From Callorhinchus milii (Eukaryota), in contig NW_024704742.1 in the NCBI RefSeq assembly GCF_018977255.1, positions 8,248,001 through 8,312,000 of the forward strand: a DNA stretch of 64,000 bases. Direction: 5' to 3'. The notes under the pieces were generated by a model that did no database searches, was not told where the DNA came from, and saw only the letters and a list, made by a program, of their open reading frames with translations. This document shows positions 1,343 through 26,500 of the stretch, one piece after another (the stretch's first letter is position 1; each line of letters opens with the position of its first letter). The translations under genes and the position numbers were made by a program.

Positions 1343-1367
1343 NNNNNNNNNNNNNNNNNNNNNNNNN

Positions 1368-2217: not shown

Positions 2218-2258
<41 letters not shown>

Positions 2259-4076: not shown

Positions 4077-4660
4077 TTTTTTTGTGGGGGGGTCAGCGGG
4101 TGTCTGAAACATGCGGAAACCCATCACCGTGTTTAAGATTAACCAAACCAAACTGAGATTTCCATGTGCCCACCCACACATGGAAATCCCAGAGATAGAT
4201 TGTTGGAATGCAATGTGCATTCTCTCGCTGGAGGGACCATCCTGTTTACCTCATTCCAGACAGTATTAGGTGCAGGTTGGCAAGAGCCAAGGCTTGGGGA
4301 CCCCAGAGTGTGTGTTGGAGTAACTGCTGGAGTCTAACCAGCTAAAACCGCATAGTTTGCCACTGCTATCTGACAAGCTTTCCCGCTGCTTGTCCAGCTG
4401 GGACCACCCTACCCCTTAGGGCTTTGGCTTGCAGGGCTAACAGGAGCTGAGTGGGTGGACTCCCTGCCCCCGGTGATTGGTCTGCCCTCCTGGTCCTGCC
4501 AATGAGCCAGGCTGGGCTGTGCTGTCATCAGCAGTGCTCTGGAATACTATGGACCAGGCTGGCTCAGGAACCGGACTAGAGACTATCACAGAGAGCTGAG
4601 TCGAGTCTGACATTCCTTTTCCAGGCATGTCACCTTGAAGCCAGTTCAGCACCAAGGAGC
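4077..4660 (-). mobile_element. Unclassified poly(A)-ended interspersed repeat (other copies 5840-6290 -, 25640-26007 +, 28070-28210 -, 47635-47825 +)
   Basis: Five mutually alignable copies. Three share a 3' end with an A-run and a conserved hairpin. Confidence 0.7.
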
Positions 4661-5269
4661 CCATGTTTAATCGACTAACAGCTGGGTTTCTACTTACTGC
4701 TAGGTACACAGAGGCATATGGAGTAAGGAAACTTGCCCAATGTTTTGCCCTGCTGGGAATCAAACCCAGGGCTTCTCGATTGCGAGGCGAGTGCTCTCGG
4801 AACCGAGAAAGCCACCAAGCTACAGACCACTAAGCTACAGACTCCACAACTTGTTTAGCAAAGCTTTTGAGACTCATTTATAAAGCAGTTAGGAGGACAG
4901 CAGGGTGGGTGCTGTGGAGGCATAAGATTAGATGGGCCAAAGGGCCTTCATCCAATCCCATCTTGTGATCTTGTGAGATAGAGTCACGTAGTGAGGGCAA
5001 AGTGTGTGAAATGGAATAGAAATGGCTTGAATCAGAGAGAGCGTAGGTGGAATTGTGAGCTGGAGCTAAGTGTGTGCACACCAGGAAACTGATGTTTTGC
5101 CCACCCCAGCTACTGATGGTGCCATCGTTCAGAACTCCACAGCTCGTGTCCTCTCCCGCACCAGGTTCGGTGACCCTATCACCCACACCCTCGCCTGGTT
5201 GCACTGGCTCCCCATCCCCCAGAGGATAGAGTTCAAAATCTTCATCCTCCGTTCAAAGCCCTCCTACCC

Positions 5270-5839
5270 CTGACCTGATAAGTCTGTGTGTGTATAACGG
5301 GGGCACACAGAGTAAGTATGTGAGTATGTGTGTGGGGGTTGGCAGCACAGAATACATCAGTGTGTATGTGTGGCGGGGGTACAGAGTAAGTCTGTGAGTG
5401 TGTGGAGGTGGGGCAGAGCCAGTCTGCGTGTGTGTGGGGCACAAAGTAAGTTTGTGTGTATGTGAGGGGACAGATTAAGTCTGTGCGTGTGGGGGGGCAC
5501 AGAGTAAATCTGTGTGTGTTTGGTGGGGGCACAGAGTGAGTCTGCATATGGGGGAGGTCACAGAGTAAGTCTGTGTGTGTATATATGGTGGGTGACTGAG
5601 TAATTGTGTGTGTTTTTGGGGGAGCACAGATTACATCTGTGTGTTTATGTGGGAGGGCGGCACAGAATAAATCTGTGCGCGTGTGTGTGGAGGCTCAGAG
5701 AGTTTGTTTGTATGCGGGGCTCAGAGTAAGTCTGTGTGTGTGGAAGGGGGCACAGTGTAAGTGTGTGTGTGGGGGGGGATCACAAAGTCTGTGTGTGTGT
5801 GTGTGTGTGTGTGGGGGGGGGGCTCAGAGGAAGTCTGTG
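5270..5839. repeat. Degenerate minisatellite gggcacagagtaagtctgtgtgtg
   Basis: Direct reading. Confidence 0.8.
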
Positions 5840-6897
5840 TTTTTTTTGTCAGCCAGTTGTCAGACACGTGCGGAAATCCATCGCCATGCTTAATATTATC
5901 CAAACCAAGCTGAGCTGAGATTTCCATGCATCCCACCTACACATGGAAATCCCAGAGATGGATTGTTGAAATGGAGTATGCACTCTCTCCCTGGAGGGAT
6001 GCATCCTGTTTACCAAATTCTGGGAAGTGTTAGGTACAGTTTGCAAGAGCCAAGGCATTGGGGTAACAGTTGGGTGTTTAAGCAGCTGAAACCACATAGC
6101 TTGCCATTAATATTGGTGTCTGACAGGCTTTCCCGCTGCTTGTCCAGCTAGGACCACGCTCTTCCTTAGGGCTTTGGCTGCAGGGTTAACAGGAGCTGAG
6201 TGGGATGACTCCCTGCCCCCAGTGACTGGTCTGCTCTTCCAGGTCCTGTCGATGAGTCAGGAAAGTTGTCACCAGCAGTGACCTGGGGTACTACTCCCTG
6301 TGGTTCCCACACCTGGCAGTTAGAAATCACCCACCACTGAACGATTCAGACATACCCTCCGCATATGGTCTCCATAGTCCAGGACTCACTGCCTGCCGTT
6401 CACTGGGACCCAATCACTGGTTCCGCAGCTGCAAATCCCAGTCACTCACATGTGTGGATGAGGTATCGCAGATGCTAGTGGATGGGAAATGGTGTAAGGA
6501 ACTGCAGGAACTAAAAGGGGGAAGAAAATAACAATAATAATCCTTGCATTTGATATGGCGCCTTATCACGTCTTCGAGACATCTCAAAGCGCTTCACAGA
6601 ATATACCGTAAAGTGTTGTGACTATTTTGTGAGCGAATTGCGACAGACAACTGCACACAGCAGTGTCCCACATACGTGGATTGAGTGACCAAATTTTTTG
6701 TTAAGGATTAAATAATCCGATTTACTGCTAGGTAAACAGAGGTGTATGGAGTAAGGAAATTTGTGTAATGTTTCGTCCTGCCCGGGAATCGAACCCGGGT
6801 CTCTTGCTTGCGAGGCGAGAGCTCTAACCACTGAGCTACAGGGCTCCAAAGGTATGTGTAAATATCAGAGTCAGAAGCAGGCGGGTGTTACAGCTAC

Positions 6898-7051
6898 CTG
6901 ACACTAGGATCATTCTCACTGGCTGTGGAATGATTTGACGTGTTGTCATTCATATGATCTCCTTTCTTCAGGAAGAAGATTAACGTCAAAAAGGCCACAA
7001 TCAACAACAGGAGGATGAACACCAGGATTACCATGAGCCAGATGGGGGTAC
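6898..7051 (-). CDS. Transmembrane exon ([32 protein letters not shown]…)
   Basis: Phase-1 entry, 25-aa hydrophobic run followed by KK stop-transfer, tctctgcag acceptor, gtagct donor, phase 2 exit. Confidence 0.85.
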
Positions 7052-8534
7052 CTGCAGAGAGCAGAGTACATACAGACGGGTCACACCAGCAGACATCTAT
7101 CTCATTAATCTACACTGTCATCCAATCAGTCAATTCATCTATAATAATAATAATTTCATTTGATATAGCAACTTATGTCATTGAGACGTCTCAAAGCCCT
7201 TCACAGAATAGATTGTAAAGTGTAGTGACTATATTTTATGGGCTAAATGCAGCAGCCAAGTGCATACTGCAGTGTCTCACAAACAGTCATGGTAGAGTGA
7301 CTACATTTTTTTTGTAGGAATTATTACCCCAGAAAGTGATCCGACAATCGACTAACAACCGGGTTCCTAGTTACTAATTAGGTAAATAGAGGCAGTAAAG
7401 CACAGCCCAGCTCATTGGCAGGCCTTTGAAGGACACAGCACAACACACTACACTTTGACCCTGTCTTTGGCCACACTCCCCTCCCCACCCCCATCCTCTA
7501 CTCCTCGATTGCAACCCCCAACTCAGGTCCTTAACTGCTTTGGGACATCCTTCCGACATGAACAATGCTGTATGAGTGTAATTTGTTGTTGTTCGCTGTA
7601 TTGCCTCCAGCAAACCTAAAATTTTTCCAATGAGGAACCTGAAACTGCACAGTATTCCACCTTTGGCCCGACCATCATATTGAACAGAATCAACATGACA
7701 ACAACATGGGCCAAGCGAAGGTCTGTAAAGAGACTCAACAGTCATAGGTACTTGACACTAAGTATTGCAGACTGCAGACCACAGAATCATAGAATTATAC
7801 AGCACAGAAGGAGGCCATTCGGCCCATTGTGTCTGTCCCGGCTCTTTGAAAAGAGCTATCCAAATCAATTCCACTACCCGCTCTCTCCCTACAAACTATG
7901 TCCTCCACAAACAATTATCTACTGCTCTCTGTTGTTATCAAATCAGCTTCCACCACCTTTTAAGACAATGCATTCCAGACCTGAACAACAGCAACAACAA
8001 AATTACATTTGTATAGCATCTTTCACATCGGGAGGACTAAGTCAGAGTTTTGGACTCGAACTGGGAGTTGGGATCGGGGAGGGTGGAGGGCAGGAGGGGA
8101 AGCAGGGAGATTGACGGCACAATTGAAGAGGAGGGTCTTGAGATGGTTCTTGAAGGAGGTAAAGGAGGGGGCGAGGCGGAGGGACTGTGGGATGGAGTTC
8201 CAGAGGGTGGGTGAAAAAATTCACACTCTCTGCATGCAAAGATTTCTCCTCACCTCTCCTGTTTCTTTTAACAACTATTTTAAAATCGGTGTTCTCGGGT
8301 TACTGACCCACCCGCCAGTGCAAATAGTTTCTCCTTGTTCACCCTATCGAATCCCCTCATGATTTTGAAAACTTGTGGGGGAGCGGCAGCAGGACAGCGC
8401 GGGGAGGAGCCTGGGCCTACTGACCCAGGTACTTAAACTCGACGCCGGAGCGAGTGCAGCTAGGCAGCGAGGGGAGGGGACGGAGCGGGGAACTGCGACG
8501 TCATAGATTAGTTTTCAGGTGAGTGCGCGCGCAC

Positions 8535-8565
<31 letters not shown>

Positions 8566-11500
8566 CCGCGCCCCCCCCCCCCCCCAGGCTCACATCAGAG
8601 CCCACTATGGTCCTGTTGGGTTCGATGCCCCAATCTGCGGGATAATGCCATCCACCTGACCGCTCGCTCCCGGTCCCCGCGTGCGCACTATGGCTGCCGC
8701 TTTGACCCGAGCCCCCTCACCCCCTCCCTCCCGCTCCCCTCCTCTCTCCCCCCAAACCCTCCCCCCTCTCCATCTCTCCCGCTCTCTCCTCCTCTCTCTC
8801 CGTCCCTCTCGTCTTCTATCCCCACTTGACCCTCCCACAACCTCCCTCTGTTCCAGTCTGGGAATCCTCCGCCGGGCTCACCGTGGCACTCGGCGTTGGC
8901 TGTCCAGCAGCAGCCACACCGACTGCCCCATTCCCCACCACACTCGCCAGCCACCCCGGACACAGACCCGGGGAGTCAACCTCTCCTCCCTCATCCCCAT
9001 TCCCCCCACCCCTGCCTCACAACCTGGACCCCCCTCCCCTCCCACACACCCTTCTGTCAACCGCTCCCTCCACATCGGACTGCAAAATGTCCGCTCCCTC
9101 TGCAACAAGGCCCTGGTCATCAACGATCTCATCCTTGATGAGAACGTTGATATCATGGCCTTGACAGAAACCTGGCTCACCCCAGGCGACACCTTCCCCC
9201 TCACGGAGGCCACGCCACCCGGCTACACCTCCCACCACATCCCCCGCCCCAACCGCCGTGGCGGTGGTGTTGCCCTTATCTCAAGGACACCACTTGCCCT
9301 ATCCCCCTACTCCTCTGGCTCTTTCCCCTCCTTCGAGCACCTCACCCTCTCCCACCCCTCATTCCTCTCCCTTAAAATCCTCCTCCTCTACCGGCCCCCT
9401 AAAACCTCTCCCACCTTCATCTCTGACATTTCAACACTCCTCACATCTCTTTGCCTCTCCTCTGATCGCCTCATCATCCTGGGCGACTTTAACCTACACT
9501 TCACCCCCTCCTGCTCCATCTCCACAGACTTCTCTTCCCTGCTCTCCTCACTCAACCTTTCCCTACACATAAACTCCCCCACTCACAGTCACGGCCACCC
9601 ACTCGATTTGGTGATCACCCGGGGCCTCAGTGTCTCGGATGTCACTATTACCGACAAGGCCATCTCCGACCACTACTTCATCTCCTTCACCACCTCCACC
9701 CCCCTCCCCACCTCCACCAGACCCACCACCATCTTCTACCGCCCTTGGAAGAAGTTACCCCCACAATCCCTAACCGATGCCTTGGAGTCCTCTGAACTCC
9801 TCTCCCTCTGGCCTTCAACCCTCACCGACCCCTCTTCTCCTCTCTCCCTCCTCCACAATATCCTCTCCTCCACACTCGATACTCTTGCCCCCATCACTTC
9901 CCGCACTGTCTCCTACTCCCGCTCCTCCCCCTGGTACACCACCCACCTCCGCTCACTGAAATGCCAGGTGCGGGCTGCTGAGCGCACCTTTGTCAAATCC
10001 GGCTTAACGGTCCACCGACAAATCTGGCTGGACCTCCTCAAAATTTACCGCTCCACTCTAGCCTCGGCCAAGTCGTCCTTCTACTCCAGGATAATCCTGG
10101 AGGCGAAGAACAACCCCAGGCTACTGTTTTCCACCACATCCCGACTCCTCCGTCCCCCCCGCCACCCCGCGCAGGTCATCTCCTCCAACCTTCACTGCGA
10201 GGAGATGCTGGATTTCCTTGAATCCAAGATCAAGGGAATCCGCTCCGCGGTCACTTCCCCTCCAACTTCCACCCACCACCCACCCCTTCCCTCCCACACT
10301 CCGACTCCTACCCATCCTCCCCTACACACCTTCGTACCCGTTTCCCCACCCTCTGTCACTGAACTCATCCTATCCCTAAAACCAACCACCTGCTCCCTTG
10401 ACCCCATCCCCACTCCACTCCTTATCTCCCAGCTCCATTTTCTTGCCCCACACATCACTGACATCATAAACCTGTCCCTCTCCTCTGGCTCTGTCCCCAT
10501 TCCATTAAAAACTGCCATCATCACGCCCACCCTGAAAAAACCCTCCCTTGATGCGTCGCAGCTATCAAGCTACCGGCCCATCTCCAACCTCCCCTTTCTC
10601 TCCAAGGTCTTGGAAAGAGTTGTCGCCTCCCAACTGCGCTCTTTCCTCTCCACCCATTCTCTTTTTGAACCCCTTCAGTCAGGTTTCCGTGCTGCTCATA
10701 GCACAGAAACTGCCCTGGTCAAGGTCACCAATGATATCCTGACCATCTGTGACCAGGGCTCCCTCTGTCTCCTCGTCCTCCTCGACCTATCGGCAGCATT
10801 CGATACGGTCGACCACGCTATCCTACTCCACCGCTTGTCCTCCCACCTCAACCTTCAAGGCACTGTCCTTGAATGGTTTAGCTCTTACCTCTCCCACCGT
10901 CTTCACTTCGTCTCAACGAATGGCTTCTCCTCCACCCCCCGTACTGTCTCATGTGGTGTCCCTCAGGGCTCTGTCCTCGGTCCCCTCCTCTTCACCCTCT
11001 ATATGCTCCCCCTCGGTGACATCATCCGCAAACATGGGGTTAACTTCCACATGTATGCGGATGACACCCAACTCTACCTTTCCTCCTCTACTCTCAACTC
11101 CACGACCACCGATGTCCTGACAGCCTGCCTGTCCGACATCGAGTCCTGGACGAGAGACAACTTTCTTCAGCTCAACGTGCGAAAAACCGAGGCCCTCCTG
11201 ATTGGCTCACGTCAGCGCCTCCGCACCTCAGGCGCTGACACCATCAGCATCCAAGGCTGCACTCTCCACCTCTCAAAGCCAGTCAGGAACCTCGGCGTTT
11301 TGTTCGACCCTGAGCTGTCCTTTCTCCCTCACATCCGCACCACAACTGGCACCGCCTTCCATCACCTCCGGAATATCGCCAGATTACGGCACTACCTCAC
11401 CCCTCACGCTGCTGAAACCCTGGTTCACGCCTTTGTCACCTCAAGGCTGGACTATGGGAACTCTCTCCTCGCCGGCCTTCCCGCCACCTCCCTCCACAAG

Positions 11501-14500
11501 CTGCAGGTCATTCAGAACTCTGCAGCTCGTGTACTGTCCCGCACCAGGCTTCGGGACCACATCACTCCCACCCTCGCTCGCCTCCACTGGCTCCCCATCC
11601 CCCAGAGGATTGATTTCAAGATCCTCATCCTCACCTACAAGGCCATTCACGGCCTTGCTCCCTCCTACCTCTCCAACCTACTATCCCCCTACCTACCTGC
11701 CCGTACCCTCCGTTCCTCTGGCTCCGGTCTGCTCCACGTCCCCCGCCCCAACCGCCCTACTATCGGTGGTCGGGCCTTCAGCCTCTCAGCCCCGAGGCTC
11801 TGGAACTCCATCCCCCAGTGCCTTCGCCTTGCTTCCTCCCTTTCCTCCTTCAAGGCCGGTCTCAAAACCTTTCTCTTTGACCGTGCCTTCAGCTCCCCTC
11901 TCGACTCTCTTCCTCCTCCTCGCTCCCTCCCTTCCCTCACCCTGACCATTTCCCCCCTCCTCTCTCCCTCCCTTCCCTCCCCTCACCCTGACCATTTCCC
12001 CCCTGCTCGGGTCATGACCCAACTGTGCAGCGCCTTGGGACGTCCTCCTGACGTGAAAGGCGCTCTATAAATGGAATCTTGTTGTTGTTGTTGTTCTATT
12101 AAGTCTCCTCTTAAGCTTCTCTGTTCCAAGGAGGATAATGCAAATTTCTCTCGCTTCTCCTGATAACTGAAGCCCCTCATTCCTGGTACCATCCTGGTAA
12201 ATCTCCTTTGCACCATCTCCAATGCTTTAACATTCCTTCCTATGTGGTGCCCAGAACTGAACACAGTCTCTAGCTGAGGTTTAACCAGTATTTTATAAAG
12301 GTTCATCATAACTTCCTGATCTCTGCAGTCTATGTCCCTATTTATAAAGCCTAGTATCCCATATGCTTGTTTTTAAAACAGCTTTATCTACCTACTGCCA
12401 CTTTAAAATATTTATATGAACCCCCAGATCTCTCTGTTCCTTCACCTGCTTTAATATTGTACCATCTAGTTTACATTGCCTTTCCTCATTCTTCTTCCTA
12501 AAATGCATCACTTCACAATTCTCCACGTTAAACTTTATCTGCCACGTGTCTGCCCATTTTACATGTCCATGTACAGTCTGTTACTATCCTCCTCAGTGTT
12601 TACTACTTTTCCTAGCTTAGTATCATCTGGATATTGATCTCCCTATACCCAAGTCCAGGTCATTTATAAAGATCAAAAACAGCAGTGCTCCCAATACTGA
12701 CCCTGGGGGACACCACTGCACACTTCCCTCCAGTCAGAAAAACAACCGTTCACCACTCTCTTGTTTTCTGTCTCCCAACCAGTTCTGTATCCGCTGCCAC
12801 TGTCCCTTTAATTCCGTGGGCTTCTATTTTGTTTACAAGTCTCTTATGTGGCACTTTTATCAAATGCCTTTTGAAAATCCATATAAACTACATCAACTGC
12901 ATTACCTTCATCCACCATCTCCGTTACTTCATCAAAAAACTCTGTATCAGTGAAAATTTATTTTGTCCCGGATTATAGTCGCTAGAAGTTTCTCCACGAC
13001 TGACGTTGGGCTGACTGGCCTTAGTTCCCGCGTTTATCCTTCTGCCCCTTTTTTGTACAGGGGAGTAACATTTGCAACCCTCCAGTCCTCTGACACCACC
13101 CTGGTGTCCAAGGAGGTTTGAAAGATTGTGGCCAGAGCCTTGGCTATTTCCACCCTTCCTCCCCACAGTGTTAACTTAGGATGCATCCCATCCGGACCGG
13201 ATAACTTATCTACCTTGAGCACCGTCAACCATTTTAGTACTTTCCCCGGTTTATTTTTATCTTATCAAATTTCTCTATCCTCTCTCCTTTGGGATGTCCT
13301 CCTGAAACGAAAGGCGCTTTACAAATTTAATCTTGCTGTTGTTGATACCATGGCATTGGCTGCACCCTCTTCTTTTGTGAAGACAGGTGCAAAGTACTCA
13401 TTCAGGACGTCAGCCAATCCCTTTGCCTCCACAAGAAGATTTCCTCATTGGTCCCTAATTGGACCCAACTTTGACTAACCTTTTATTCTTTATATGCTTA
13501 TAAAATACCTTAGGGTTCCCTTTTATGTTACCCGCTAATGTTTTCGCTAACAATCTCTTTGACCCTCTTATTTCGTTTTTCATTTCTCCTCTGTACTTTC
13601 TATGTTCTATTTGATTATCTTCTGTATTTTTGACCTAACATTTATCAAAAGCCCTCTTTTTCTGTTTTATTTTAACCCAAATTTCCTTATGCATCCGGAG
13701 AGGTTTGGATGCCCGACCTTTCCCCTTTGGGGGAATGTATTTGTTCTGTCCCCGAACTATCTCCTCCTTGAACACTTCCCATTGCTCATTAGCTGTTTTA
13801 CCTGCCAATCTTTCTTTACAGTCCACCTTGGCTAGGTTCCTTTTTAACTCACTGAAATTAACCCTCTTCAAGTGGAGCATCTTCACCTTTGATTGGTCCT
13901 TGTCCCTTTCCATAAGTACTCTAAACCTAATGATGTTGTGATCACTGTTGTCGAGATGCTCTCCCACTGAAACCTGCTCCACTTCATTACCCAGAACTAG
14001 CTCCAGCACTACTTCCTTCCTTATTGGGCTGGAAACATACTGTTCCAGAAAGTTATCTCCTCCTTGTGGCAAGGAGGAGATGGGGTTATAACCCCATACG
14101 GCAACTTGAGCCTGCAGCTCACCAACCTTATTCATCACACTGCCATGTGACTCGCATTTACATATATGCACTCCAAGACCAACTTATTCTGTTCTGCATT
14201 TCTCCCCCATTAATCTCCCCCTTTTCTGGATAATACTCCTTATTGCATTGCTATTACTACTTGAAATTAGTTTAAACTTTTCCCCACAGAACTAGTTAAC
14301 CTCCCTACAAGGACATTGGACCCACCCCTGTTTAGGTGTGACACATCCACCTTGTACAGGTCCCACCTGTCCCAGAACTGGTCCCAATGTTCCAGAAACC
14401 CAAAGCCCTCCTTTCTGCACCATTCCTCCAGCCATGCATTCATTTGTGTTTCATTCTGCTGCTTTGATACTCACTTTCATAATTCCCTGGGATTAATCCA

Positions 14501-17500
14501 GAGATTACTAAATTTGAGGTCCTACTCTTTAGCTTGTTCCCTAACTTCTAATACTAACCATGTAAGATTTCAGCCCTTTCTTCCCTCTATAGAATTCCCA
14601 ACGTGCTCCACCTCACTCATTTCCCTCCTCACACTACTAGGTTCTCTGCTCAAGTAAGGCTCTTGAACGTCTTCTCCTTTATATAGGACTCAAACAAAAC
14701 CACCCATTTCTTACTGGTCTGCATATTTTTTAATCCCCAACACTTGGCCCATGATTAACTGCTAATTGACTTGTTTGCCTGCTTACATATAAGGTTGCCC
14801 CTCTTCTGCTGAATGACAGAGTTCTCTCTTGCTCTCTGGTATCTCTCTTGCTGAAGAATTCCCTCTCACCAAATTCCTTAACAGAATTCTCTCTCTGTTC
14901 CACCTCACTCAGTTCCCTCCTCATGCTGCTGGGATCGCTTCTCAAGATCATTCAGGACTCTGCAGGTTGTGTTCTTTCCCGCCCCAGTCTCCATGACCCT
15001 ATCACCCTCACTCGGCTCCACTGGTACCCCATTCCCCCAGAGGATAGAGTTCAAAACCCTCGTGCTCACTTTCAAAGCCCTCCAAGGGTCTTCCTCTTCC
15101 CTACTTCTGTAACTTGCTTAAACCTTACAACCTGTCAGCTCCCTCCGTCCGCTCTACAGGCACTGGCCTGCTTCATGTCCCCCATCCTGCTCGCCCGCCC
15201 CACCATCACCGATCGTACCTTCAAGCTTTTTGCTCCCACCGTCTGGAACTCCAACCCTCCTCCTCACTCCCTCCCTTGATTACTGCAAGGCCCGTTTCAA
15301 GACCCTCCTCGTTGACTGTACCTGTGGGCATCCTCAACTCCCCCACTACTTGATTTCCAACCCCCAGCTCAGATGAGAACCTTTAACTGTGCAGCATCTT
15401 GGATTGTCATCCCTACATGCAAGGCACTATGTAGATTAGAATACATTGGAATATACAGCACAGAAACAAGCCATTCAGCCCAACTAGTCTATGCCGGTGT
15501 TTATGCTCCACTCGAGCCTCCTCCTGCCAACCTTCTATTCCTTTCTCCCTCATGTACCTATCTAGCTTTCCCTTAAATACATCTATGCTATTTGCCTCAA
15601 CTCCTCCTTGTGGTAGCATGTTCCACATTCTCACTACTCTCTGTGAAGAAACTTATTCTAACTTCCCTATTTGATTTATTTGTGATTATTTTATATTGAT
15701 GGCCCCTTGTTTTGATCTCCCCCACAAGTGGAAACATCTTCCCTATGTCTACCCTATCAAAACCTTTCATTAAAGATCTCTATCAGGTCACCCCTTACCC
15801 TCCTCTTTTCAAGAGAAAAGAGTCCAAGTGTATTCAGCCTTTCCTGCTAGGTATAACCTCTCAATTCTGGAATCATCCTTGTGAATCTCCTTTGCACCCT
15901 CTCCAGTGCCTCTACACCCCTTCTATAATGTGGGGACCAGAACTTCACATAGTATTCTAAGTGTGGTCTAACCAAGGTTCTATAGCAGTTTACCATAACT
16001 TCCCTGCTTTTCATTTCTATCCCTCAGCAAGTTTATTAACGTCTTGCTGTAATTTGTTGCAGTCCTCCTCTGCATTAACCACTCCCCCAATTTGGTGTCA
16101 TCCGCAAATTTTGAATTGTACTGCTGATTCCTGAGTCCAAATCATTAATGTATATTGTGAACAACAGTGGTCCCAATATCAATCCCTGTGAACACCATTG
16201 CCCACTCCCTGCCAGTCTGAGTAACTACCCTTCACCCCTACTCTCTGTTTTGTAGCCAGCTTGCTATCTTCAAAGAATTCAATGAAGTTGGTCAAGCATG
16301 ACCTTCCTTTTTGAAATCCGTGCTGACTATTCTTTATTATATTTTCCATTTCTAGATGTTTTTCTATTACCTCCTTGAATAAGGATTCCATTAACTTTCC
16401 TACCACCGATGTTAAGCTGACAGGTCTATAGTTCCCTGGGCTTGCTCTATCTCCCTTTTTAAATATAGGTATAACATTAGCTAACCTCCAGTCCTCTGGC
16501 ACTACTCCCTTTTCTAATGAGTTATTATATATGTGTAATAGTGCCTCTGCTATCTATTTGGCTATCGTCTCCTTGATCCCACATCCCCTGACCTTGAGCC
16601 ACAAATTGTTTGTGTGGAACCTCGTCAAAAACCTTCTGAAAATCCCTGCACATCACATCAGCTGCTGTTGTTCCCCTCTTTAAAATGTCTCAAAGCCCTT
16701 CATAGAATTTATTGTAAAGTACAGTGACTATGTATTTTGTGGGTGAAACGTGGCAGCTAATTGGGCACAGCATTGTCCCACAAAGTCATGGATTGAGTGA
16801 CCAAATTATTATTATTTTTTGACGAGATTATTACCCCCAGAAAAGTGATCCGCCAATCAACTAACAACCGGGTTCCTACTTACTGCTAGGTAAACAGAGG
16901 TGTGTGTAGCAAGGAAACTTGCCTAACATTTCGCCCTGCCAGGAACAAAAGTGAAAGTCGGTGTGTAAATGTAAATTTGTTGTTATTGTAAGTAACAGAA
17001 AATCTGCAGTTAGCAGTTACGATGGTCTTCCGTTTCCCACTCTCTCGACTCGTTCAAAAATAAGCTGCTGAAGAGAGGATTGAGGGCACCTACCTGTGTG
17101 GGCACAGGTAACCAACATTCTGTGAGGAACTGCTTTCATCTTTGAGTTATTCTTCAGTGTGGGTGCTGTAGACAATAAGATTCACATCAGGGAGCGGGAG
17201 TAACATGTCACACCGACCATCTCAACCCCCACCATCTCACCTCCACCATCTCACCCCCAACTCCACCATCTCACTCCCAGCCCCCCACTATCTCACCCCC
17301 ACCCCCCACCATCTCACCCCCACCATCTCACCCAACTGGCCTCTGTGTACACAGACTCAGCAAACAATGGAGCTCAGTCTGCTGTTGAGTTGGTGTACCT
17401 GGCTCAGCCGTACTGCTGGCAGACAAACGGTTCGCAAACTTGAACGCTGTGGAAAGGAAAGATGTGAGGTGAGAGGTCAACAGCAGCCACTCTGGTCCTT

Positions 17501-20500
17501 GTTGTGAACCAGTCACATGATGTTTCGCCCACAAACTAGTTACTACACTTTACAGTATATTCTGTGAAGCGCTTTGAGATGTCTCGAAGACATGATAAGG
17601 CGCTATGTTAAATGCAAGGTTTATTATTCATAGTATTTACCATATGTTTCGGTGTCATCCAAATACATATGGAAGTTGACCCCATGTCTGCAGATGATGT
17701 CACCAAGATGGAGTACATAGATACTGAAGAGGGGGGGACCAAGAATAGAGCTCTGAGGAACCCGCACGAGATAGTGCGGGGGCGAGAGGCGAAACCGATT
17801 GTGGAGTTGAAGTGGAGAAGATGTGAGAGATAGGATCTGAACCATTCAAGGACAGAACCATGAAGGTTGAGGTGAGAGAGGCGATGGAGGAGGATAGAGA
17901 GTGGTCAATGGTATCGAAGACAGCAGTGGTCAAGAAGGATGAGGAGGCAGATGGGCAGAATATCATTTGTCACTTTGACCAGGGCTGCTTCTGTGCTGTG
18001 GGCGGCACGGAAACCTGATTGGAGAGGTTTGTGAAGCGTGTGGCGGGAGAGGAAGGAGCAAAGCTGGGAAATGACGACTCATTCCAGGATCATGGAAAGA
18101 AAGGTTGGAGATGAATTACGTACAGCAGTGTCCCACAAACAGTCGTTGATTGAGTGAGCAAATTATTATTTTTAGTTTTTTTTTGAAGGGATTATTACCA
18201 ATAAAAGCAATCGGCCAATTGACTAGGTAAATAGAGGCATGTGGAATAAGGAAACTTGCACAATGTTTCACCCCGCCCAGGAATCAAACCCAGGTCATCT
18301 TGCTTGTGAGGAAAGTGTTCTAACTACTAATCTATAGGACTCCACAAACTGAGCAAACTGACTCTTGGTCTCCACATGAACAAGAACAATACCGTTAAAA
18401 ACGTTGCTTACCTCGGACTAGGCTGGGTGTTGTTTTTTCAAAATGTCCCACAGTTCCTTTGAAAATAACACGAGGTCCAAATGTGGCTGCAGTAAAGACA
18501 AAGCAGATAGAAAAGACAGTGTCGCCAGCCCTGGCTGCTGAGCCAGTTAGCCTACGATTCCTGAAATGTACAGCACTCGAGAGGTAAAAGGTTGAATACA
18601 ACAGGTGCTTACTTATATCTGCAGCAGCAGTTGTCCTGGGATGTTTCCTTACGATCAAATCATGTTCAGAATCTGTTGAAAAGGGAAGATAGGAGCAATT
18701 ATTGCCAGCACTTCCCTCCAATCTCACAGCCAGTCACCATATGTTAACTGCAATCTGCTTTCACTGATAGCGGAGAGCTTGATATCCACACAAACCTGAA
18801 CTGCCCCCATAAGAAAGCAGATCTCTGTGAGTGTGTGCGCGTATGTCTGCCTGTGCGTGTCTGTGCTGTGCTTTGAAGCGTTCTGAGATGCTGCCCTGCT
18901 ATGCAAATTGTTGATGTGTATGTGTATCCATGGAGGACATGTGTTTCCTATTCTTACATCCTATATGTAGGATCTTTGGATTTATCAGTATTAAAAATTG
19001 CCAGTTATCAGCCCATCTACAGTGGAGGACAGTGGAGTCCTGTAGCTCAGTGGTTAGAGCACTCGCTTTGCAAGTGAGAGACCCGAGTTCAATTCCAGGC
19101 AGAGGGCGAAACCTTGGGCAAGTTTCCTTACTCCACACAGAGCCTAATAATAATCCCTCCAAAAACCAAAATAAAAATTGGTCATTTTCAATCTACGACT
19201 GTTTGTGGGACATTGCTGTGCGCAATTGGCTGCCACTTTCGCCCACAAATATAGTCAATTCACTTTACAGTGTGTTCTGTGAAGCGCTTTGGGACGTCCT
19301 CCCGACGTGAAAAGCGCTATATCAAATGCAAGGATTATTATTATTATTATTATCTATGTACCATAACAGGCTCTCTATCCTTTCGGTTTCCTCTGATTCC
19401 AACCTGGCATGCTGGGTCACTTAATGCGCGAGGGGCACTAGAGAAATGCAAGTTGTTGTTCTTGGTATCATCTGAACTGGGTCTGTGATTCCAGGGTCAT
19501 TTATACAAACAATTTCTATTTATATAGCACTCCTCATGCAGGGTAGCATCCCTGAGCACTTAGAAGGAACCAGGCTGTTTGAGAGGATGATAAATGAGGA
19601 AGATTTTGAAGGAGAGGAAGGGATGGTACAGAGTTAAGTGTTTAGGGGGACAGAGTCACCAGGACTCAGCCTGCTTTCTAAACCCAAGGATGTTGATGTG
19701 ATCGTCCAGGATGTCATGGATCGTAAAGATTTTATTGGAGACCCTGAGGCACCCACTTAATACCTCCTCCCCATTGTGACCTACATTTTGCTTCTTTCCC
19801 TTCAGCCAATTCTCAATCCGCTATGTGTTGTCCTTCATACCCAATGACATTGCTTACTTCGGACTAGGCTGGGTGTTGCTTTTTCAAAATGTCATGGTTT
19901 GTGAAGGAACCTTTAGTGAGGTACTTTGTCACACGTCCTTTTGAACATCTTGCGCTAAAGGAAAGTCCTTTATGCAGGGTAGCATGTCGGAGTACTTAAC
20001 AGTGGTCGATTTTGACCTGAGGCAGGAAGGGGGGAAGGTGATGATAGGCATGATCGAACAGAAAGTCTAGAAGTGTGACCTGAAGGTAGGCAAGAGGGGG
20101 CAAGGCTGAGAGATTCAACAACAAATTGCATTTATACAGTGGTCGATCAGAAAGGTCTTGTGGGAGGCGAAGGGATTCCAGGATGGAGGTCCAGAGGGTG
20201 GGGACAGAAAGGCTGAAGGCTTGACTGCCGATGGTAGGGTGGGCAGGGTGGGGTTGTGACAGAGGCTAGTGGCTGTCGAGGTGAGAGCGAAGGAGATGGG
20301 AGTGGGTTGGGTGGCAGGGAGTTGGATGGAGGAGTTTAAAGGAGAAGATTGAGGCAGAATATTGGTAGAGTTTTAGAAGGTCACAAAGGGAGGGTAGAGG
20401 CAAGACCGTGGAGGGATTCTGGGGGATGGGGAGCTAGAGCATCGAGTTCAGGATTCTTGCAGGAGTAGAACCGATAGTTGTGAAGGAAAGTGATGAGGTT

Positions 20501-23500
20501 AGGTGGTGGTGGGAAAAGGGCCAGAGTAGGTGTTCAGATAGCTAGAGGGCACTAGAGAAGGAGTGGTGGGTGATTTATTTTCAGGGATGGAAGGAGATGG
20601 GAGTGGGTTGGGTGGCAGGGAGTCAGATGGAGGAGTTTAGAGAAGAAGATTGAGGTAGAGATGTGTTCAATGGATGGAACTTTGTGGAGTCCTGTAGCTC
20701 AGTGGTTAGAGCACTCGCCTTGCAAGCGAGACACCTGGGTTCAGTTCCAGGCAGGTCAGGGCGAAACCGTGGGCAAGTTTCCTTACTCCACACCCCTAAT
20801 AATAATCCCTCCAAAAAACAAAACAATAACAAATTGGTAATTTTCAATCCACAACTATTTGTGGGACACTGCTGTGCACAATTGGCTGCCTCGTTTCACC
20901 CACAAATATAATACAGTCAATCCACTTTACAGCATATTCTGTGAAGCGCTTTGAGACGTCTAGAAGATGTGAAAAGTGCTATATAAAATGCAAGGATTAT
21001 TATTATTACTATAGAGAATTCCGGAGTATCGGGGTGGAGTGGCTGAAAGCACGGCTGTCCCTGGTGAGCAAATGGAACGAGCGAGGTACAGAAGGACTGA
21101 GCTGCCTGAACTAAGTGGGTGGTGGAGTGGGGGAGTAAGCAGGTTGGAGAAGTAGGGAGGTGCCAGTGAATGAAGCGATTTATATGTGAAGTCTGAGGAT
21201 CTTAAAATCGATCTGTTCTGCAATAAGCCCTTATATTAAAAAGTAATAATAATGTCACTCAATCCATGACTGTTTTTGTGGGACACTGTTGTGCGCAATA
21301 GGCTGCCGTGTTTTGCCCACAAAATATAGTGAATTCACTTCACAGTATATTCTGTGAAGCGCTTTGAGACTGTGATCGGTGGGGGACTGTGATCGATGGG
21401 GGACTATGATCAGTGTGGGACAGTGATCATAGAATCATAGAATTATTAACACAGGAGGCCATTTGGCCCATCATGTCTGTGGCGGCTCTTTGAAGAGCTG
21501 TCCAATTCAATCCCACTTCCCCGCTCTCTCCTCATAGCCCTGCAAACTTGTCCTACCCAAATAATTATCTACTTCTCTCTTAAAAGTTTTTATCGACTCG
21601 GCTTCCACCACCCTTTGAGGCAATGCATTCCAGATCTGAACACAAGCCATCAGTGAGTGGCCGGGATCCATGAGTGGCCGGGATCAGTGTGGGACCGCGA
21701 TCAGTGTGGGACTGCGATCAGTGTGGGACCGCGATCAGTGTGGGACCGCAATCAGTGAGTGACTGCATCAGGTTGGGACTGCGTCAGGGTGGGACTGCGA
21801 TCAGTGAGTGACTGTGATCAGTGTGGGACTGCTATCAGTGAGTGACTATGATGAAAAAATAGTATATATAAATCACAGATTCAAAATAGTATCTAAAAGA
21901 AGCAGAGGGGAGGTGAGAAGAAATGTTTTCACGCAGCGAGCTGTTCGAATCTGGAATGCATTGCCTGAAAGGGTGGTCGAGCCCGATTCGATAACTACTT
22001 TTAAAAACGTGGTGGACAGGTATTTGAGGAGCACAGGTTTGCAGGGTTTCTGAGCTTGAGGAGCTTGAGGAGTCACTACACAGCATATGGGAGGCTGAAG
22101 AGTTCATGGATCGAACGTTTCAGGAGGTGGTCACCCCACAGCCACAGAGGGTTCAGAAGGAGAATGAGTGGGTGACCACCCGACATGGTAAGAAGTGTGG
22201 ACAGCCAGTGCAGAAATCCCGAGAGTGGCACTCACAAACCAGTTTGGTGTACTGAATACACAGAATGTGATGATACCTCTGGGGAGAGGAGTCAAAAGCA
22301 AATGGATGCACAGGGGTACACAGAGAAAAATGTCAATGCAATTGTCATTGGGGACACAATGGTGAAAGGAGTAGACAAGAGTTTTCGCAACCAAAGAAGT
22401 GACTCTCGCATGGTATGTTGCCTTCCTGGTGCCAGGGTTGAAGACATCATGGAATGGGTGCAAAACGTTCTACAGGGGGGAGGGGAACATCCAGCAATCG
22501 TGGTCCATGTTGGGATCCATGACGTAGGGAAAAAATGTGCTGAGATCCTACAAGAATAGTATCAGAAGCTCGGGAAAAAGTTAAAGAAGTAGGACCTCAA
22601 AGGTGGTGATCTTTGGATTACTCCCAGTGTCTTATGTGAGTATCAAAACAGCAGGATCAAACACATGAATGGATGGCTGGAGAAATGGTGCAGAAAGGAG
22701 GGCTTCAGGTTCCTGGAACATTGGGATTAGTTCTGGGGCAGGTGGGACCTGCACAAGGTCGATAGGTTACACCTGAACAAAGCTGGGTCCAGTGTCCTTG
22801 TAGTGGAGGTTAACTAGTGCTGTGCGGAAAGGTTTAAACGTTCGAGTAATAATAGCAATGCAATAAGGAGTATTATCCAGAAAAAGGAGAGATTAAACGG
22901 GGGAGAAATGCAGAGCAGAATAAGTTGGTCTTGGAGTGTGCGTAAATGCACAGAGTATGAAGAATAAGGTTAGTGAGCTGCAGGCTCAAGTTGCCACAGG
23001 AGGTTATAACTCTATCTCCTCCTCTTCACAAGGAAGAGATAACTTTCTGAAATAGTATGTTTCCAGCCCAATGAGGAAGGAAGCAGTGCTGGATCTAGTT
23101 CTGGGGAATGAAGTGGGGCAGGTGGAGCAGGCTTCAGTAGGAGAGCATCTGGACAACAGCGATTACAACATCATTCGGATCAGAGTACTTATGGAAAGGG
23201 ACAAGGAACAATCAAAGGTGAAGATGCTCCACTTGAAGAGGGCTAATTTCAGTGAGTTAAAAAGGAACCTAGCCAAGGTGGACTGTAAAGAAAGATTGGC
23301 AGGTAAAACAGCTAATGAGCAATGGGAAGTGTTCAAGGAGGAGATAGTTCGGGGACAGAACAAATACATTCCCCCAAAGGGGAAAGGTCGGGCATCCAAA
23401 CCTCTCCGGATGCATAAGGAAATTTGGGTTAAAATAAAACAGAAAAAGAGGGCTTTTGATAAATGTCAGGTCAAAAATACAGAAGGTAATCAAATAGAAC

Positions 23501-26500
23501 ATAGAAAGTACAGAGGAGAAATGAAAAACGAAAAAGAGGGTCAAAGAGATTGTATGAGAAAACATTAGCGAGCAACATAAAAGGGAACCCTAAGGTATTT
23601 TATAAGCATATAAAGAATAAAAGGTTAGTCAAAGTTGGGTCCAATTAGGGACCAATGAGGAAATCTTCTTGTGGAGGCAAAGGGATTGGCTGACGTCCTG
23701 AATGAGTACTTTGCACCTGTCTTCACAAAAGAAGAGGGTGCAGCCAATGCCATGGTATCAACAACAGCAAGATTAAATTTGTAAAGCGCCTTTCGTTTCA
23801 GGAGGACATCCCAAAGCGCTGGAGAGAGGATAGAGAAATTGGATAAGATAAAAATAAACCGGGGAAAGTACTAAAACGGTTGACGGTGCTCAAGGTAGAT
23901 AAGTCATCCGGTCCGGATGGGATGCATCCTAAGTTAGCACTGTGGGGAGGAAGGGTGGAAATAGCGGAGGCTCTGGTCACAATCTTTCAAACCTCCTTGG
24001 ACACCGGGGTGGTGTCAGAGGACTGGAGGGTTGCAAATGTTACTCCCCTGTACAAAAAGGGGCAGAAGAATAAACGCAGAAGCTACAGGCCAGTCAGCCC
24101 AACGTCAGTCGTGGAGAAACTTCTAGCGACTATAATCTGGGACAAAATAAATTTTCACTGATAAGTTTTTTTGGTGAAGTAACGGAGATGGTGGATGAAG
24201 ATAATGCAGTTGATGTAGTTTATATGGATTTTCAAAAAATGTTTGATGAAGTGTCACATAAGAGATTTGTAAGCAAAATAGAAGCCCACGGTATTAAAGG
24301 GACAGTGGCAGCGGATACAGAACTGGCTGGGAGACAGAAAACAGAGAGTGGTGGTGAACAGTTATTTTTGTGACCGGAGGGAAGTGTGCAGTGGTGTCCC
24401 CCAGGGTCAGCATTGGGACCACTGCTGTTTTTAATCTATATAAATGACCTGGACGTGGGTATAGGGAGATCAATATCCAAGTTTGCAGATGATACTAAGC
24501 TAGGAACAGTAGTAAATGGTGAGATAGTGGCAGACCGTAAGAAGACATAGACTGACTGGTAACATGGGCAGACACGTGGCAGATGAAGTTTAATGTGGAG
24601 AAATGCGGAGTGATGCATTTGGGGAGGAAGAATGAGGAGAGGCAATATAAGCTGATGGTACAATCTTAAAGGGGGGGAAGGAACAGAAGACCTGGGGTTC
24701 ATATAAGTAAATATTTGAAGGTGGCAGGACAGGTAGATAAAGCTGTTAAAAAAGCATACAGGTGCAAAGGAGATTTACTAGGATGGTACTAGGAATGAGG
24801 GACTTCAGTTATTAGGATAGGCTAGAGAAGCCGGGATTATTCTCCTTGGAGGAGAGGTTAAGAGTGGACTGAATAGAATTTTTTAAAATTATGCAGGGAT
24901 TCGATAGGGTGAAGAAACTATTCAAATTGGGGGTTGGGTCGGTAACCCGAAGACACTGATTTAAAATAGTTGTTAAACGAAACATTGGGGAGATGAGGAG
25001 AAATTTTTTCATACGAGTTGTTCAGATCTGGAATGCATTGTGTGAAAGGGTAGTGGAACCAGATTCGATAACAACTTTTAGGAGAGAATTAGATAATTAT
25101 TTGGGGAGGACACGTTTGCAGGGCTATGGAGAGAGAATGGGGGGGTGGGATTGATTTTGATAGCTCTTTTAAGAGAGCCGGCACAGACACAACAGACCAA
25201 ATGACCTCCTTCTGCGCTGTATAATTCTATGATTCTATGATTAGTGTGTGACTATGATCAGTGTTTAGTTCAGTGATTGTAATGAATGACTAATATGTGG
25301 CAGTAGTGTGTGGCTCAGTGTTAGTGTGTTATTGCTGTGCTGTACCTGAAGTGTTCCCTGTTACAGCTAGCTCTGGTGTAGTTGTGTCAGCTCTCCTGTC
25401 TGTTAAAAAGAGAAGCAGAAATGCCATTGTCTATATGGCTGACAAGAGTCTGAGAGAGAAAATCAGAGGGTGTGGTGGGTGGTTTGTGCCATAGCCAAGC
25501 CCTAACCTAATCTCTCTGGGTGAGAATCAGCTGCTATGCCCAACACAAGCTCTCATGTTTGGTCTACTTACATAATTCCAGTCACATTTACACTGCACCA
25601 CAATTGACACTTATACTGACCACCACTGACATACTAGGAGGCTGAAAGCCAAAGCCATAATGCGTAGGGTGGTCCTAGCTGGATAAGCAGCGGGAAAGCT
25701 TGCCAGACAGCGATATCAATGACAAGCTATGTAGTTTTAACTAGTTAGACTCCAGCAGTTACTACAACGCACTCTGGGGTCCGTCCCCAAGCCTTGGCTC
25801 TTGCCAAACTGCGCCTAATACTCTCCAGGATTCGGTAAGCAGGATGCATCCCTCTACGGAGAGAGTGCCAATTCCATTCCAACAATCTATCTCTGGGATT
25901 TTCATGTGCAGGTGGGATGAATGGAAATCTCAGATTGGTTGGATACTCTTGAGCACGGTGATGAGTTTCTGCATGTGTCAGACATCCAGCTGACTGCAAA
26001 AAAAAATTAAACATTGACATTTATACTGCACCACCATTTGTCCAAAATTATGAGTGTTTTGATAAAGAGTAATAGGGAGAAACTATTTCCTCTGGCGGGT
26101 GGATCGGGGGAATGGGTCGGAATGGATCAGCACAGGCACATGCTGTAAGATTCCATGATTCTATGAATTGACATTTATACATGTGGAAAGCCCTTCTCAG
26201 AGAACTTGAGCTGCTGACTTTGTGCTTTGTCACCGACCACCCCAGCTTCTTTAGCTCCGTCACAGAATGGATCAATGTCAAGTTCCTCACATTCCAACAA
26301 TGCCCTAGGACCTCCCTCATCTGCTTACAATACAGTCCTCAACCTGTCCCCTCCACTCAGCTGGCTCCAGCCGTCTGCATGTGCCCCGATGCCACCGTTC
26401 CACCATCTGGTAACTGCTTTCAGCCACTACGCCCCAAACCTCAGGAACTCCCTGTTTCAATCCCTCCACTAGCCCCCTCTTTACCCGTTTTCAGATCCCA

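What the first reader, a model, noticed from the sequence alone, without database searches (positions are those of the whole stretch)
12096..24900. Near-identical inverted CR1 pair brackets four stalk exons
Seen: CR1 copies at 12096-14555 (-) and 22555-24900 (+) share internal deletions and the same short L2-tail insertion (about 13290-13345 and 23758-23820). They are almost identical over about 13100-13950 versus 23130-24000. A third copy at 41705-43497 lacks the insertion, pointing to local duplication or gene conversion. The arms enclose exons S3-S6 (255 nt, frame-preserving). Known: intronic inverted repeats promote exon skipping, back-splicing and A-to-I editing. Inference: a pre-mRNA duplex could loop out 85 aa of stalk as a block, make a circRNA, or mediate an inversion polymorphism.
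Basis: partly seen in the sequence, partly recalled or inferred. Interest (0 to 1): 0.75.

Follow-up and report, generated by a model that had tools for sequence, protein, structure and literature searches.

The report
Inverted CR1 pair homogenised by gene conversion
Two old retrotransposon copies lying head to head in neighbouring introns of an elephant-shark ADAM12-like gene have copy-corrected each other's middle part, an ordinary process, and nothing yet shows that this changes how the four enclosed exons are spliced.

Summary
An inverted CR1 pair brackets stalk exons S3-S6 (60+75+48+72 = 255 nt) of an ADAM12-like gene on the minus strand.

- Arm A is 12094-14586. A 3.7-kb L2-like LINE (8373-12093) splits off its 3' end, which lies at 8234-8372 and 7780-7989.
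- Arm B is about 22042-25245.

Identity is strongly mosaic. It is about 83% at the 3' end and about 96% over 13000-13985, with perfect runs of 243 and 223 nt. The longest run in 10,000 shuffles was 134 nt.

The arms look like independent insertions:
- Their 5' ends differ.
- Their flanks are unrelated.
- Their 3' parts are not sisters and carry 2 shared-derived sites of 352, against 66 of 1056 in the centre.

The best reading is ectopic gene conversion between two CR1 insertions 8-9 kb apart, not local duplication.

The RNA ideas (block skipping, circRNA, editing) remain untested. All 7 protein models keep S3-S6, and only S2, outside the loop, is optional. The read-laying output was swamped by repeats.

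This is a new example of a known process, of low interest. The scan noted converting inverted repeats before, in two other genomes.

The parts
12094..14586 (-). Arm A, main body: a CR1-type LINE copy, 5'-truncated at 14586, in the intron between S6 and the TM exon
   Evidence: Homology to 12 other genomic copies ends within 25 nt of 14586.
8373..12093 (+). L2-like LINE (3721 nt) inserted into the 3' part of arm A. It has an open 1136-aa frame (8660-12070) with endonuclease and reverse-transcriptase domains and a (TTG)n tail
   Evidence: the frame. (RVT_1 at 2.7e-36, Exo_endo_phos at 2.2e-15). (the CR1 sequence resumes exactly at 8372). (39 other places about 100% identical over 1.5 kb).
7780..8372 (-). 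The 3' remainder of arm A, at 8234-8372 and 7780-7989 with an unrelated 244-nt filler at 7990-8233. It ends in ATTCTATG ATTCTGTG at about 7780-7795
   Evidence: (79.7% and 79.9% to arm B 24877-25012 and 25017-25239)..
22042..25245 (+). Arm B: a CR1-type LINE copy in the intron between S2 and S3. It reaches about 480 nt further 5' than arm A. Its 3' end (ATTCTATG x2) lies about 100 nt from the S2 donor
12612..14299 (.). The gene-conversion mosaic on arm A (its partner on arm B is about 22810-24503). Here the arms are sisters and share derived sites
   Evidence: shared-derived sites 2-9% here, against 0-1% at 12094-12610. (A+B sister with support 0.967, 1.000 and 0.999).
13287..13529 (.). Perfect 243-nt tract, partner 23574-23816. 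It begins at the tail insertion
13638..13860 (.). Perfect 223-nt tract, partner 23244-23466
13285..13345 (+). LINE/SINE tail fragment of about 55-60 nt ending in (TTG)n, inserted in the CR1 core. The partner on arm B is 23758-23821 and is 5 nt longer
14055..14088 (.). Shared deletion junction. The junction itself is a 12-nt palindrome in arm A. The partner on arm B is about 23014-23040. Other copies carry 320-430 more nt here
17094..18672 (-). Enclosed exon block: S3 18613-18672 (60 nt), S4 18412-18486 (75 nt), S5 17399-17446 (48 nt) and S6 17094-17165 (72 nt), together 255 nt
25346..25399 (-). Exon S2 (54 nt), just outside arm B. It is the only stalk exon that is optional in the protein models
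6897..7051 (-). Transmembrane exon, the next exon after arm A
   Evidence: Spliced contigs in X1 and X2 cover 6896-7048.
41705..43497 (+). Third CR1 copy in the window, used for comparison. It lacks the tail insertion

Best explanation
Two CR1-type LINE copies inserted separately, in opposite orientation, into the two introns that bracket stalk exons S3-S6 of an elephant-shark ADAM12-like gene. The arms lie only 8-9 kb apart. Repair of DNA breaks in one arm has repeatedly used the other arm as template, without crossing over (non-allelic gene conversion).

This produced a mosaic:
- Older converted stretches span about 12612-14299. There the arms share derived substitutions, a deletion and a short tail insertion.
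- Two very recent tracts of 243 and 223 nt are still letter-perfect.
- The element ends were never converted and look like any two random family members.

A crossover between inverted arms would invert the S3-S6 block and break the gene. Only non-crossover products are therefore expected to persist. This step is inferred.

In the pre-mRNA, both arms are intronic, and their cores can pair into a near-perfect duplex of about 1 kb that loops out S3-S6. Such a duplex should be a substrate for A-to-I editing and may allow a little back-splicing or block skipping. The main mRNA keeps all four exons. These RNA steps are inferred and not shown.
For: The identity profile is mosaic. It is about 76-86% at 12094-12600, 90-95% at 12612-13000 and 95-100% at 13000-13900, then 80-90% up to 14586.

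The perfect runs are 243 and 223 nt. The arms differ by 238 events over 2314 aligned columns. Placing those events at random 10,000 times gave a longest run of 55 nt on average and 134 nt at most.

The insertions look independent:
- Arm A's homology to 12 of 12 other copies stops within 25 nt of 14586. Arm B runs 73-484 nt further with 12 of 13 copies.
- Sequence beyond the element ends is unrelated, at 36-47% identity.
- With the 3' part of arm A as query, arm B is not among the 40 best genomic matches, which are arm A itself and 39 other copies at 84-86%. The A-B identity there is 82.9%, while A reaches 85.8% and B 89.3% to other copies.

Sites were polarised against other copies. Shared-derived sites are 2 of 352 at 12094-12610 and 66 of 1056 at 13150-14299 (Fisher p = 9e-7). 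Private differences fall to 0 in the two perfect tracts.

Segment trees are incongruent. A and B are not sisters in the 3' segment. They are sisters with support 0.967, 1.000 and 0.999 in the three central segments and 0.848 at the 5' end.

Only the two arms cross the insertion junctions and the deletion junction, among 40 scored of 1972 and 40 scored of 1355 candidates.

The distance fits the literature. Passages of PMC6598467 report raised non-allelic conversion between copies less than 10 kb apart.

For the RNA part, the pair scores 2951 bits against 308 for the next inverted match in the S2-to-TM interval, and duplexfold gives -1849.6 kcal/mol for the cores.
Against: Genome searches score only the 40 best candidates. 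The statement 'private to the pair' is therefore a lower bound, not a census.

The comparison copies were picked as the best matches to arm A, which could bias the polarisation.

One unrelated copy (L033) has a different tail inserted within a few nt of the same site. The site may be an insertion hot spot. The 5-nt length difference between the two arms' inserts could also be read as two separate insertions.

At 13990-14299 the arms share a deletion and 7-9% derived sites, yet each also has 3-8% private changes. This stretch could reflect shared subfamily origin instead of an old conversion.

No second individual or long-read data were examined. Conversion was not seen in action, and an assembly artefact is not formally excluded.

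For the RNA part, 7 of 7 protein models include S3-S6, and no read evidence of any kind was obtained.
Confidence: 0.78

Rival explanations
1. Local inverted duplication. One CR1 copy that already carried the tail insertion and the deletion was duplicated in inverted orientation, and the copies later diverged.
For: The pair shares an insertion and a deletion that were found in no other scored copy. The arms are sisters in the central segments.
Against: Divergence is far from uniform, running from 0% to about 17% along the arms. The 3' parts are not sisters and have 2 shared-derived sites of 352. Arm A stops at 14586 while arm B continues as CR1 for about 480 nt more. Homology ends at the element borders, and no flanking DNA is shared.
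Confidence: 0.07
2. Same rare master copy. Both arms are daughters of one source element that had the insertion and the deletion, and they landed near each other by chance or by local reinsertion.
For: The shared structural markers. A CR1 family with thousands of copies, with 3835-5568 first-look candidates.
Against: LINE daughters keep the 3' end of their source. Yet the 3' 517 nt show no shared-derived signal and are not sisters. No third member of such a subfamily was among the scored candidates. Two perfect tracts of more than 220 nt sit inside arms that are otherwise about 10% diverged, which does not fit one insertion age.
Confidence: 0.07
3. Assembly or polishing artefact. Reads from one arm were used to correct the other, which created false identical tracts.
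For: No direct evidence. Patchy identity is what mis-polishing of repeats can look like.
Against: The arms also share a 55-60-nt insertion, a deletion of more than 300 nt and derived sites over about 1.7 kb, which polishing does not create. A contig of an independent 2013 run matches 14354-14633 without a difference across arm A's 5' border (record 6). That speaks only for that border.
Confidence: 0.04
4. Selected RNA structure. The complementarity is kept because the pre-mRNA stem regulates the stalk, through block skipping of S3-S6, a 255-nt circRNA or editing-dependent control.
For: The pair is the dominant inverted match across the two flanking introns. All six stalk exons are multiples of 3, so any skip keeps the frame. 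Inverted Alu pairs are linked to loop-out skipping in primates (PMC13019027 passages; PMC13019944 and PMC2533698 by search listing).
Against: 7 of 7 protein models keep S3-S6. Gene conversion between close repeats needs no selection (PMC6598467 passages). The loop is 8-9 kb with four exons, while the primate work cited looked within 5 kb of single exons.
Confidence: 0.06

Closest known systems
Non-allelic (ectopic) gene conversion between neighbouring transposable-element copies, as described for Alu pairs (PMC6598467 passages; PMC8230782 search listing)
   Same: Two dispersed-repeat copies less than 10 kb apart. The identity is patchy, the tracts run from hundreds of nt to about 1 kb, and the phylogeny changes along the element.
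   Different: The elements here are CR1 LINEs of about 3 kb in a chimaera, and the pair is inverted and intragenic. The conversion carried a secondary insertion and a deletion from one copy to the other.
Arm-to-arm gene conversion in palindromes and inverted duplicates, such as the human Y-chromosome palindromes (recalled, not read here; Y assemblies appear in the listing)
   Same: Inverted arms are kept alike by non-crossover repair. A crossover would invert the spacer.
   Different: The arms here did not arise by duplication. They are two separate insertions, and only the middle third is homogenised. The arms are about 3 kb long, not tens of kb or more.
Inverted intronic Alu pairs that promote loop-out exon skipping, exon circularisation and A-to-I editing (PMC13019027 passages; PMC13019944, PMC2533698 and PMC11263572 by listing; Zhang et al. 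2014 seen only in a reference list)
   Same: Reverse-complementary repeats lie in the introns on both sides of frame-preserving exons within one pre-mRNA.
   Different: No skipping, back-splice or editing was observed here. The stem would be much longer and more perfect than an Alu pair. The loop holds four exons and 8-9 kb.

Membership tests
CR1-type LINE | The 3' end carries the 8-nt ATTCTRTG repeat (motif recalled from the CR1 literature, not from a call) | tested here: met
   Arm B ends ...ATAATTCTATGATTCTATGATT at about 25222-25245. Arm A ends ...ATTCTATGATTCTGTG at about 7780-7795.
CR1-type LINE | Endonuclease and reverse-transcriptase coding remnants | tested here: inconclusive
Pfam found no family in 5 of 5 open-frame fragments of the arms at E <= 0.01. 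The fragments are short and decayed.
CR1-type LINE | Variable 5' truncation with a complete 3' end | tested here: met
   Arm A is cut at 14586, while arm B and 12 of 13 other copies continue. Both arms reach the 3' repeat.
Non-allelic gene conversion between repeats | Identical tracts longer than chance allows, given the overall divergence | tested here: met
   Runs of 243 and 223 nt, against a maximum of 134 nt in 10,000 shuffles.
Non-allelic gene conversion between repeats | The phylogeny changes along the sequence | tested here: met
   The arms are not sisters at 12094-12610. They are sisters with support 0.967-1.000 at 12612-14299. The shared-derived gradient agrees.
Non-allelic gene conversion between repeats | The copies are of independent origin, so similarity is not simply recent duplication | tested here: met
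   Different 5' ends, unrelated flanks, and 39 other copies closer to A's 3' part than B is.
Non-allelic gene conversion between repeats | The event is seen directly, as tract polymorphism between individuals or species | not testable with these tools
   Only short contigs of other runs were available, and they were swamped by repeats. No related genome is held.
Inverted-repeat loop-out skipping or circRNA locus | Reverse-complementary sequences in the introns on both sides of the exon(s) | tested here: met
   Arm B lies in intron S2-S3 and arm A in intron S6-TM. The pair is the strongest inverted match of the interval.
Inverted-repeat loop-out skipping or circRNA locus | A skipped or back-spliced junction is present in RNA | tested here: inconclusive
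   0 of 7 protein models lack S3-S6. The read-laying run listed only 15 of 3412 joints, all at repeats, and none at the exon borders.
Inverted-repeat loop-out skipping or circRNA locus | A-to-G mismatch clusters in the arms | tested here: inconclusive
   No cluster is listed in the arms, but unique RNA cover of the arms is not shown and all runs are contigs.

The most novel reading that the evidence does not exclude
The two letter-perfect tracts mean that conversion is ongoing. It keeps a stem of more than 200 bp, perfectly double-stranded, inside the pre-mRNA of a gene whose stalk is built from six frame-neutral exons. If that stem is used, this would be a non-mammalian, LINE-based counterpart of Alu-driven loop-out splicing, renewed by concerted evolution rather than by new insertions. 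Possible uses are trimming 85 residues of stalk as a block, making a 255-nt circle, or gating expression through editing.
Probability: 0.07. Interest if true: 0.55.

Novelty: new member of a known kind. Interest (0 to 1): 0.25.

Why it matters
The locus is a clean, well-delimited example of copy-correction between two separately inserted LINE copies in a slowly evolving vertebrate genome. The unconverted ends prove independent origin, the centre shows at least two ages of conversion, and a secondary insertion and a deletion were carried across. That makes it useful as a teaching case, and as a caution for dating repeats by pairwise identity or for calling 'local duplications' from shared indels.

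It would matter more only if the RNA stem turned out to shape splicing of the ADAM stalk. Nothing here shows that.

Tried and rejected
RNA evidence:
- The look-up of sequencing runs on the exon-dense stretch 28700-37300 listed no RNA holder. 12 runs were listed, and 0 are on record as RNA.
- I laid X1, X2, X4 and X5 on 6800-25500. All are contigs. The tables are dominated by repeat copies from elsewhere in the genome.
- Only 15 of 3412 joints and 24 of 6526 loose ends were printed. None lies at an exon border.
- So nothing can be said about 25346-to-7051 skipping, 17094-to-18672 back-splicing or editing.
- The only usable items are two contigs (X1 record 1, 377 nt; X2 record 9, 621 nt) that carry the TM exon 6896-7048 with non-adjacent sequence on both sides, meaning they are spliced. 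Their partner exons were not shown.
- Both tools are capped at one call, so the test could not be repeated on a smaller stretch.
- The joint 8372-to-12094 (X2 2 contigs, X5 3 contigs, side 21 nt, depth far above single-copy) most likely comes from other uninterrupted CR1 copies. I do not read it as an empty-site allele.

An idea dropped: BLAST identities suggested that nearly all A-B differences in the core lie on arm A's branch. Site-by-site polarisation did not bear this out, since A-derived and B-derived counts are similar. No direction of conversion is claimed.

Pfam on five arm fragments gave nothing.

Literature: a search for circRNA plus elephant shark returned 5 papers. None is on this subject by title (listing only). 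No paper on CR1 gene conversion in Callorhinchus surfaced, which were listings.

Inversion polymorphism could not be addressed, because no long DNA reads were available.


Full report
WHERE WE ARE.
The window is C1:8248001-8312000 of a genome of about 991 Mb. One exon-sized open frame (32753-33064, minus strand) found a 913-aa protein, P0001. A source names it 'Disintegrin and metalloproteinase domain-containing protein 12-like', from Callorhinchus. P0001 maps exon by exon onto the minus strand at 100% identity in most exons.

With AG/GT borders that reproduce the protein, the stalk exons are as follows:
- S1 27159-27254 (96 nt)
- S2 25346-25399 (54 nt)
- S3 18613-18672 (60 nt)
- S4 18412-18486 (75 nt)
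- S5 17399-17446 (48 nt)
- S6 17094-17165 (72 nt)

The transmembrane exon follows, starting at 7051. S3-S6 sum to 255 nt. All six stalk exons are multiples of three.

THE OBSERVATION.
The inverted pair exists. A global alignment of 12094-14586 with the reverse complement of 22526-24878 has 2314 aligned columns, 215 substitutions and 90.7% identity. Identity is very uneven:
- about 76-86% at 12094-12600
- 90-95% at 12612-13000
- 95-100% at 13000-13900
- 80-90% from there to 14586
- random beyond both ends

Two runs are letter-perfect: 13287-13529 with 23816-23574 (243 nt), and 13638-13860 with 23466-23244 (223 nt). I placed the 238 difference events at random 10,000 times. The longest run averaged 55 nt and never exceeded 134 nt.

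The shared short insertion is the 3' tail of a LINE/SINE ending in (TTG)n. It sits at about 13285-13345 in A and 23758-23821 in B, and B has 5 more nt at the left edge. The third CR1 copy in the window (41705-43497) lacks it.

At about 14055-14088 both arms lack 320-430 nt that six other genomic copies have.

TRUE EXTENT OF THE ARMS.
Eleven other copies show that the CR1 sequence does not end at 12094. In arm A it resumes, to the letter, at 8372. The 3721 nt between (8373-12093) are an L2-like LINE inserted into arm A. That LINE has an open 1136-aa frame with endonuclease and reverse-transcriptase domains.

Arm A's 3' remainder is at 8234-8372 and 7780-7989. It is about 80% identical to arm B 24877-25239. 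It ends in ATTCTATG ATTCTGTG.

Arm B ends in ATTCTATG ATTCTATG at about 25245, about 100 nt from the S2 donor. This 8-nt repeat is the 3' hallmark of CR1 as I recall it. No repeat library was available to test the family names further, and Pfam saw nothing in the decayed arm fragments.

At the 5' side, arm A's similarity to 12 of 12 other copies stops within 25 nt of 14586. Arm B stays similar to 12 of 13 other copies for 73-484 nt more, to about 22042.

DUPLICATION OR CONVERSION?
Several results point to two separate insertions.
- The 5' ends differ, as above.
- Nothing outside the elements is shared.
- With arm A's 3' 527 nt as query, the 40 scored matches are arm A itself and 39 other copies at 84-86%. 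Arm B is not among them.
- In that segment A-B identity is 82.9%, while A reaches 85.8% and B 89.3% to other copies.

I polarised sites against the majority of at least 5 other copies. Sites where A and B share a derived letter are 2 of 352 at 12094-12610. They are 66 of 1056 at 13150-14299 (Fisher p = 9e-7). They fall again to about 2.5% at 14300-14586. Private changes mirror this: about 7-9% per arm at the 3' end, 0 in the two perfect tracts, and 3-8% elsewhere in the centre.

Segment trees agree:
- no A+B clade at 12094-12610 (18 sequences)
- A+B at 0.967 for 12612-12999 (10 sequences)
- A+B at 1.000 for 13000-13985 (16 sequences)
- A+B at 0.999 for 13990-14299 (18 sequences)
- A+B at 0.848 for 14300-14586 (17 sequences)

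A LINE daughter inherits the 3' end of its source. A common master or a simple duplication would therefore make the 3' parts the most alike, not the least alike. The pattern fits conversion events of different ages, most recent in the centre.

Genome-wide, only the two arms cross both junctions of the insertion (40 scored of 1972 candidates). Only the two arms cross the deletion junction (40 scored of 1355). With the core as query, arm B scores 97%. The next full-length match scores 83%, and partial matches reach 88-90% (40 scored of 3835). These searches score only the best candidates, so they are not a census.

A CAVEAT FOUND ON THE WAY.
One match (C1:130661498) crossed the right junction at 77%. 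Fetched as L033, it is an unrelated CR1 copy, 80.8% identical to arm A. It carries a different and longer tail (about 104 nt, ending in ATT repeats) inserted within a few nt of the same site.

The site may therefore attract such insertions. The 5-nt difference between the inserts of A and B could be read as two separate events. The surrounding perfect identity and the shared derived sites still require conversion.

HOW IT LIKELY WORKS.
- Shown: mosaic identity, incongruent phylogeny and independent origin.
- From the literature: non-allelic conversion between repeats rises with identity and with proximity, with raised rates under 10 kb (passages of PMC6598467). The converted cores here are 9.1 kb apart.
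- Inferred: breaks in one arm are repaired from the other without crossover. A crossover would invert 14587-22041, which holds S3-S6, and break the gene, so it would be removed by selection.

No direction of conversion can be given. An apparent asymmetry disappeared on polarisation.

RNA LEVEL.
Both arms are intronic in the same pre-mRNA. The pair is by far the strongest inverted match between 7052 and 25345, at 2951 bits against 308 for the next. duplexfold gives -1849.6 kcal/mol for the cores and -469 and -431 for the perfect tracts. Pairing is therefore plausible, and by analogy with inverted Alu pairs it could support editing, loop-out skipping or circularisation. The sources for that analogy are PMC13019027 (passages), which studied single exons within 5-kb flanks and notes that multi-exon loops need further work, and PMC13019944 and PMC2533698 (listing only).

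The evidence here is thin, and what there is points the other way. The 90% cluster of P0001 has 7 protein models, and 7 of 7 contain S3-S6 unchanged. The only optional stalk exon is S2, absent in 2 of 7, and S2 lies outside the loop. The sequencing-run search and the read-laying run gave nothing usable (see Tried and rejected).

VERDICT.
The DNA-level reading resolves to gene conversion between two independent CR1 insertions (confidence about 0.78). The RNA-level reading is untested and has no support from the annotated isoforms.

This is a new example of a known process. Similar 'inverted repeats kept alike by conversion' were noted by this scan in two other genomes. The stalk's six symmetric exons were noted separately on this same stretch.

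Noticed in passing
window 8373-12093 (+): An L2-like LINE with an uninterrupted 1136-aa frame (endonuclease plus reverse transcriptase) is inserted cleanly into arm A. A 1.5-kb piece of it has 39 other places in the genome at about 100% identity (40 scored of 4807 candidates). The family has therefore spread very recently, and this insertion is much younger than the CR1 arms.
   Followed up: partly
L033 (G000:C1:130660500-130662600), about 960-1053; window 13285-13345: An unrelated CR1 copy carries a different LINE/SINE tail of about 104 nt, inserted within a few nt of the site where the two arms carry theirs. This may be a preferred target site for these tail-bearing retroposons inside CR1.
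   Followed up: partly
window 25346-25399 (-): Stalk exon S2 (18 aa) is the only stalk exon missing from some protein models (2 of 7). It lies about 100 nt upstream of the 3' end of arm B.
   Followed up: no
window 19856-19908 (-): A short open stretch reads [12 protein letters not shown], which resembles the end of exon S4 ([12 protein letters not shown]). It may be a remnant of a duplicated stalk exon in the S2-S3 intron.
   Followed up: no
window about 37800-40100: A G+C-rich minisatellite of about 2.3 kb (81% G+C in 38001-40000) lies in an intron of the metalloprotease part of the gene. It gives long open frames in several phases.
   Followed up: no
window 1-3000: A long low-complexity tract lies at the window start. 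It includes a run of 25 N at 1343-1367.
   Followed up: no
L027 and L029 (G000:C16:806490-806808 and C16:934286-934604): Two CR1 copies 128 kb apart on contig 16 are nearly identical to each other (tree tips 0.000 and 0.004 in the 14300-14586 segment). This suggests a segmental duplication or another conversion pair.
   Followed up: no
window 21426-21642 and 21874-22046: Two further fragments of the CR1 3' region, in opposite orientations, lie just 5' of arm B. One of them pairs with arm B's own 3' end (21407-21642 with 25019-25260, 81%), giving a competing within-intron inverted match.
   Followed up: no
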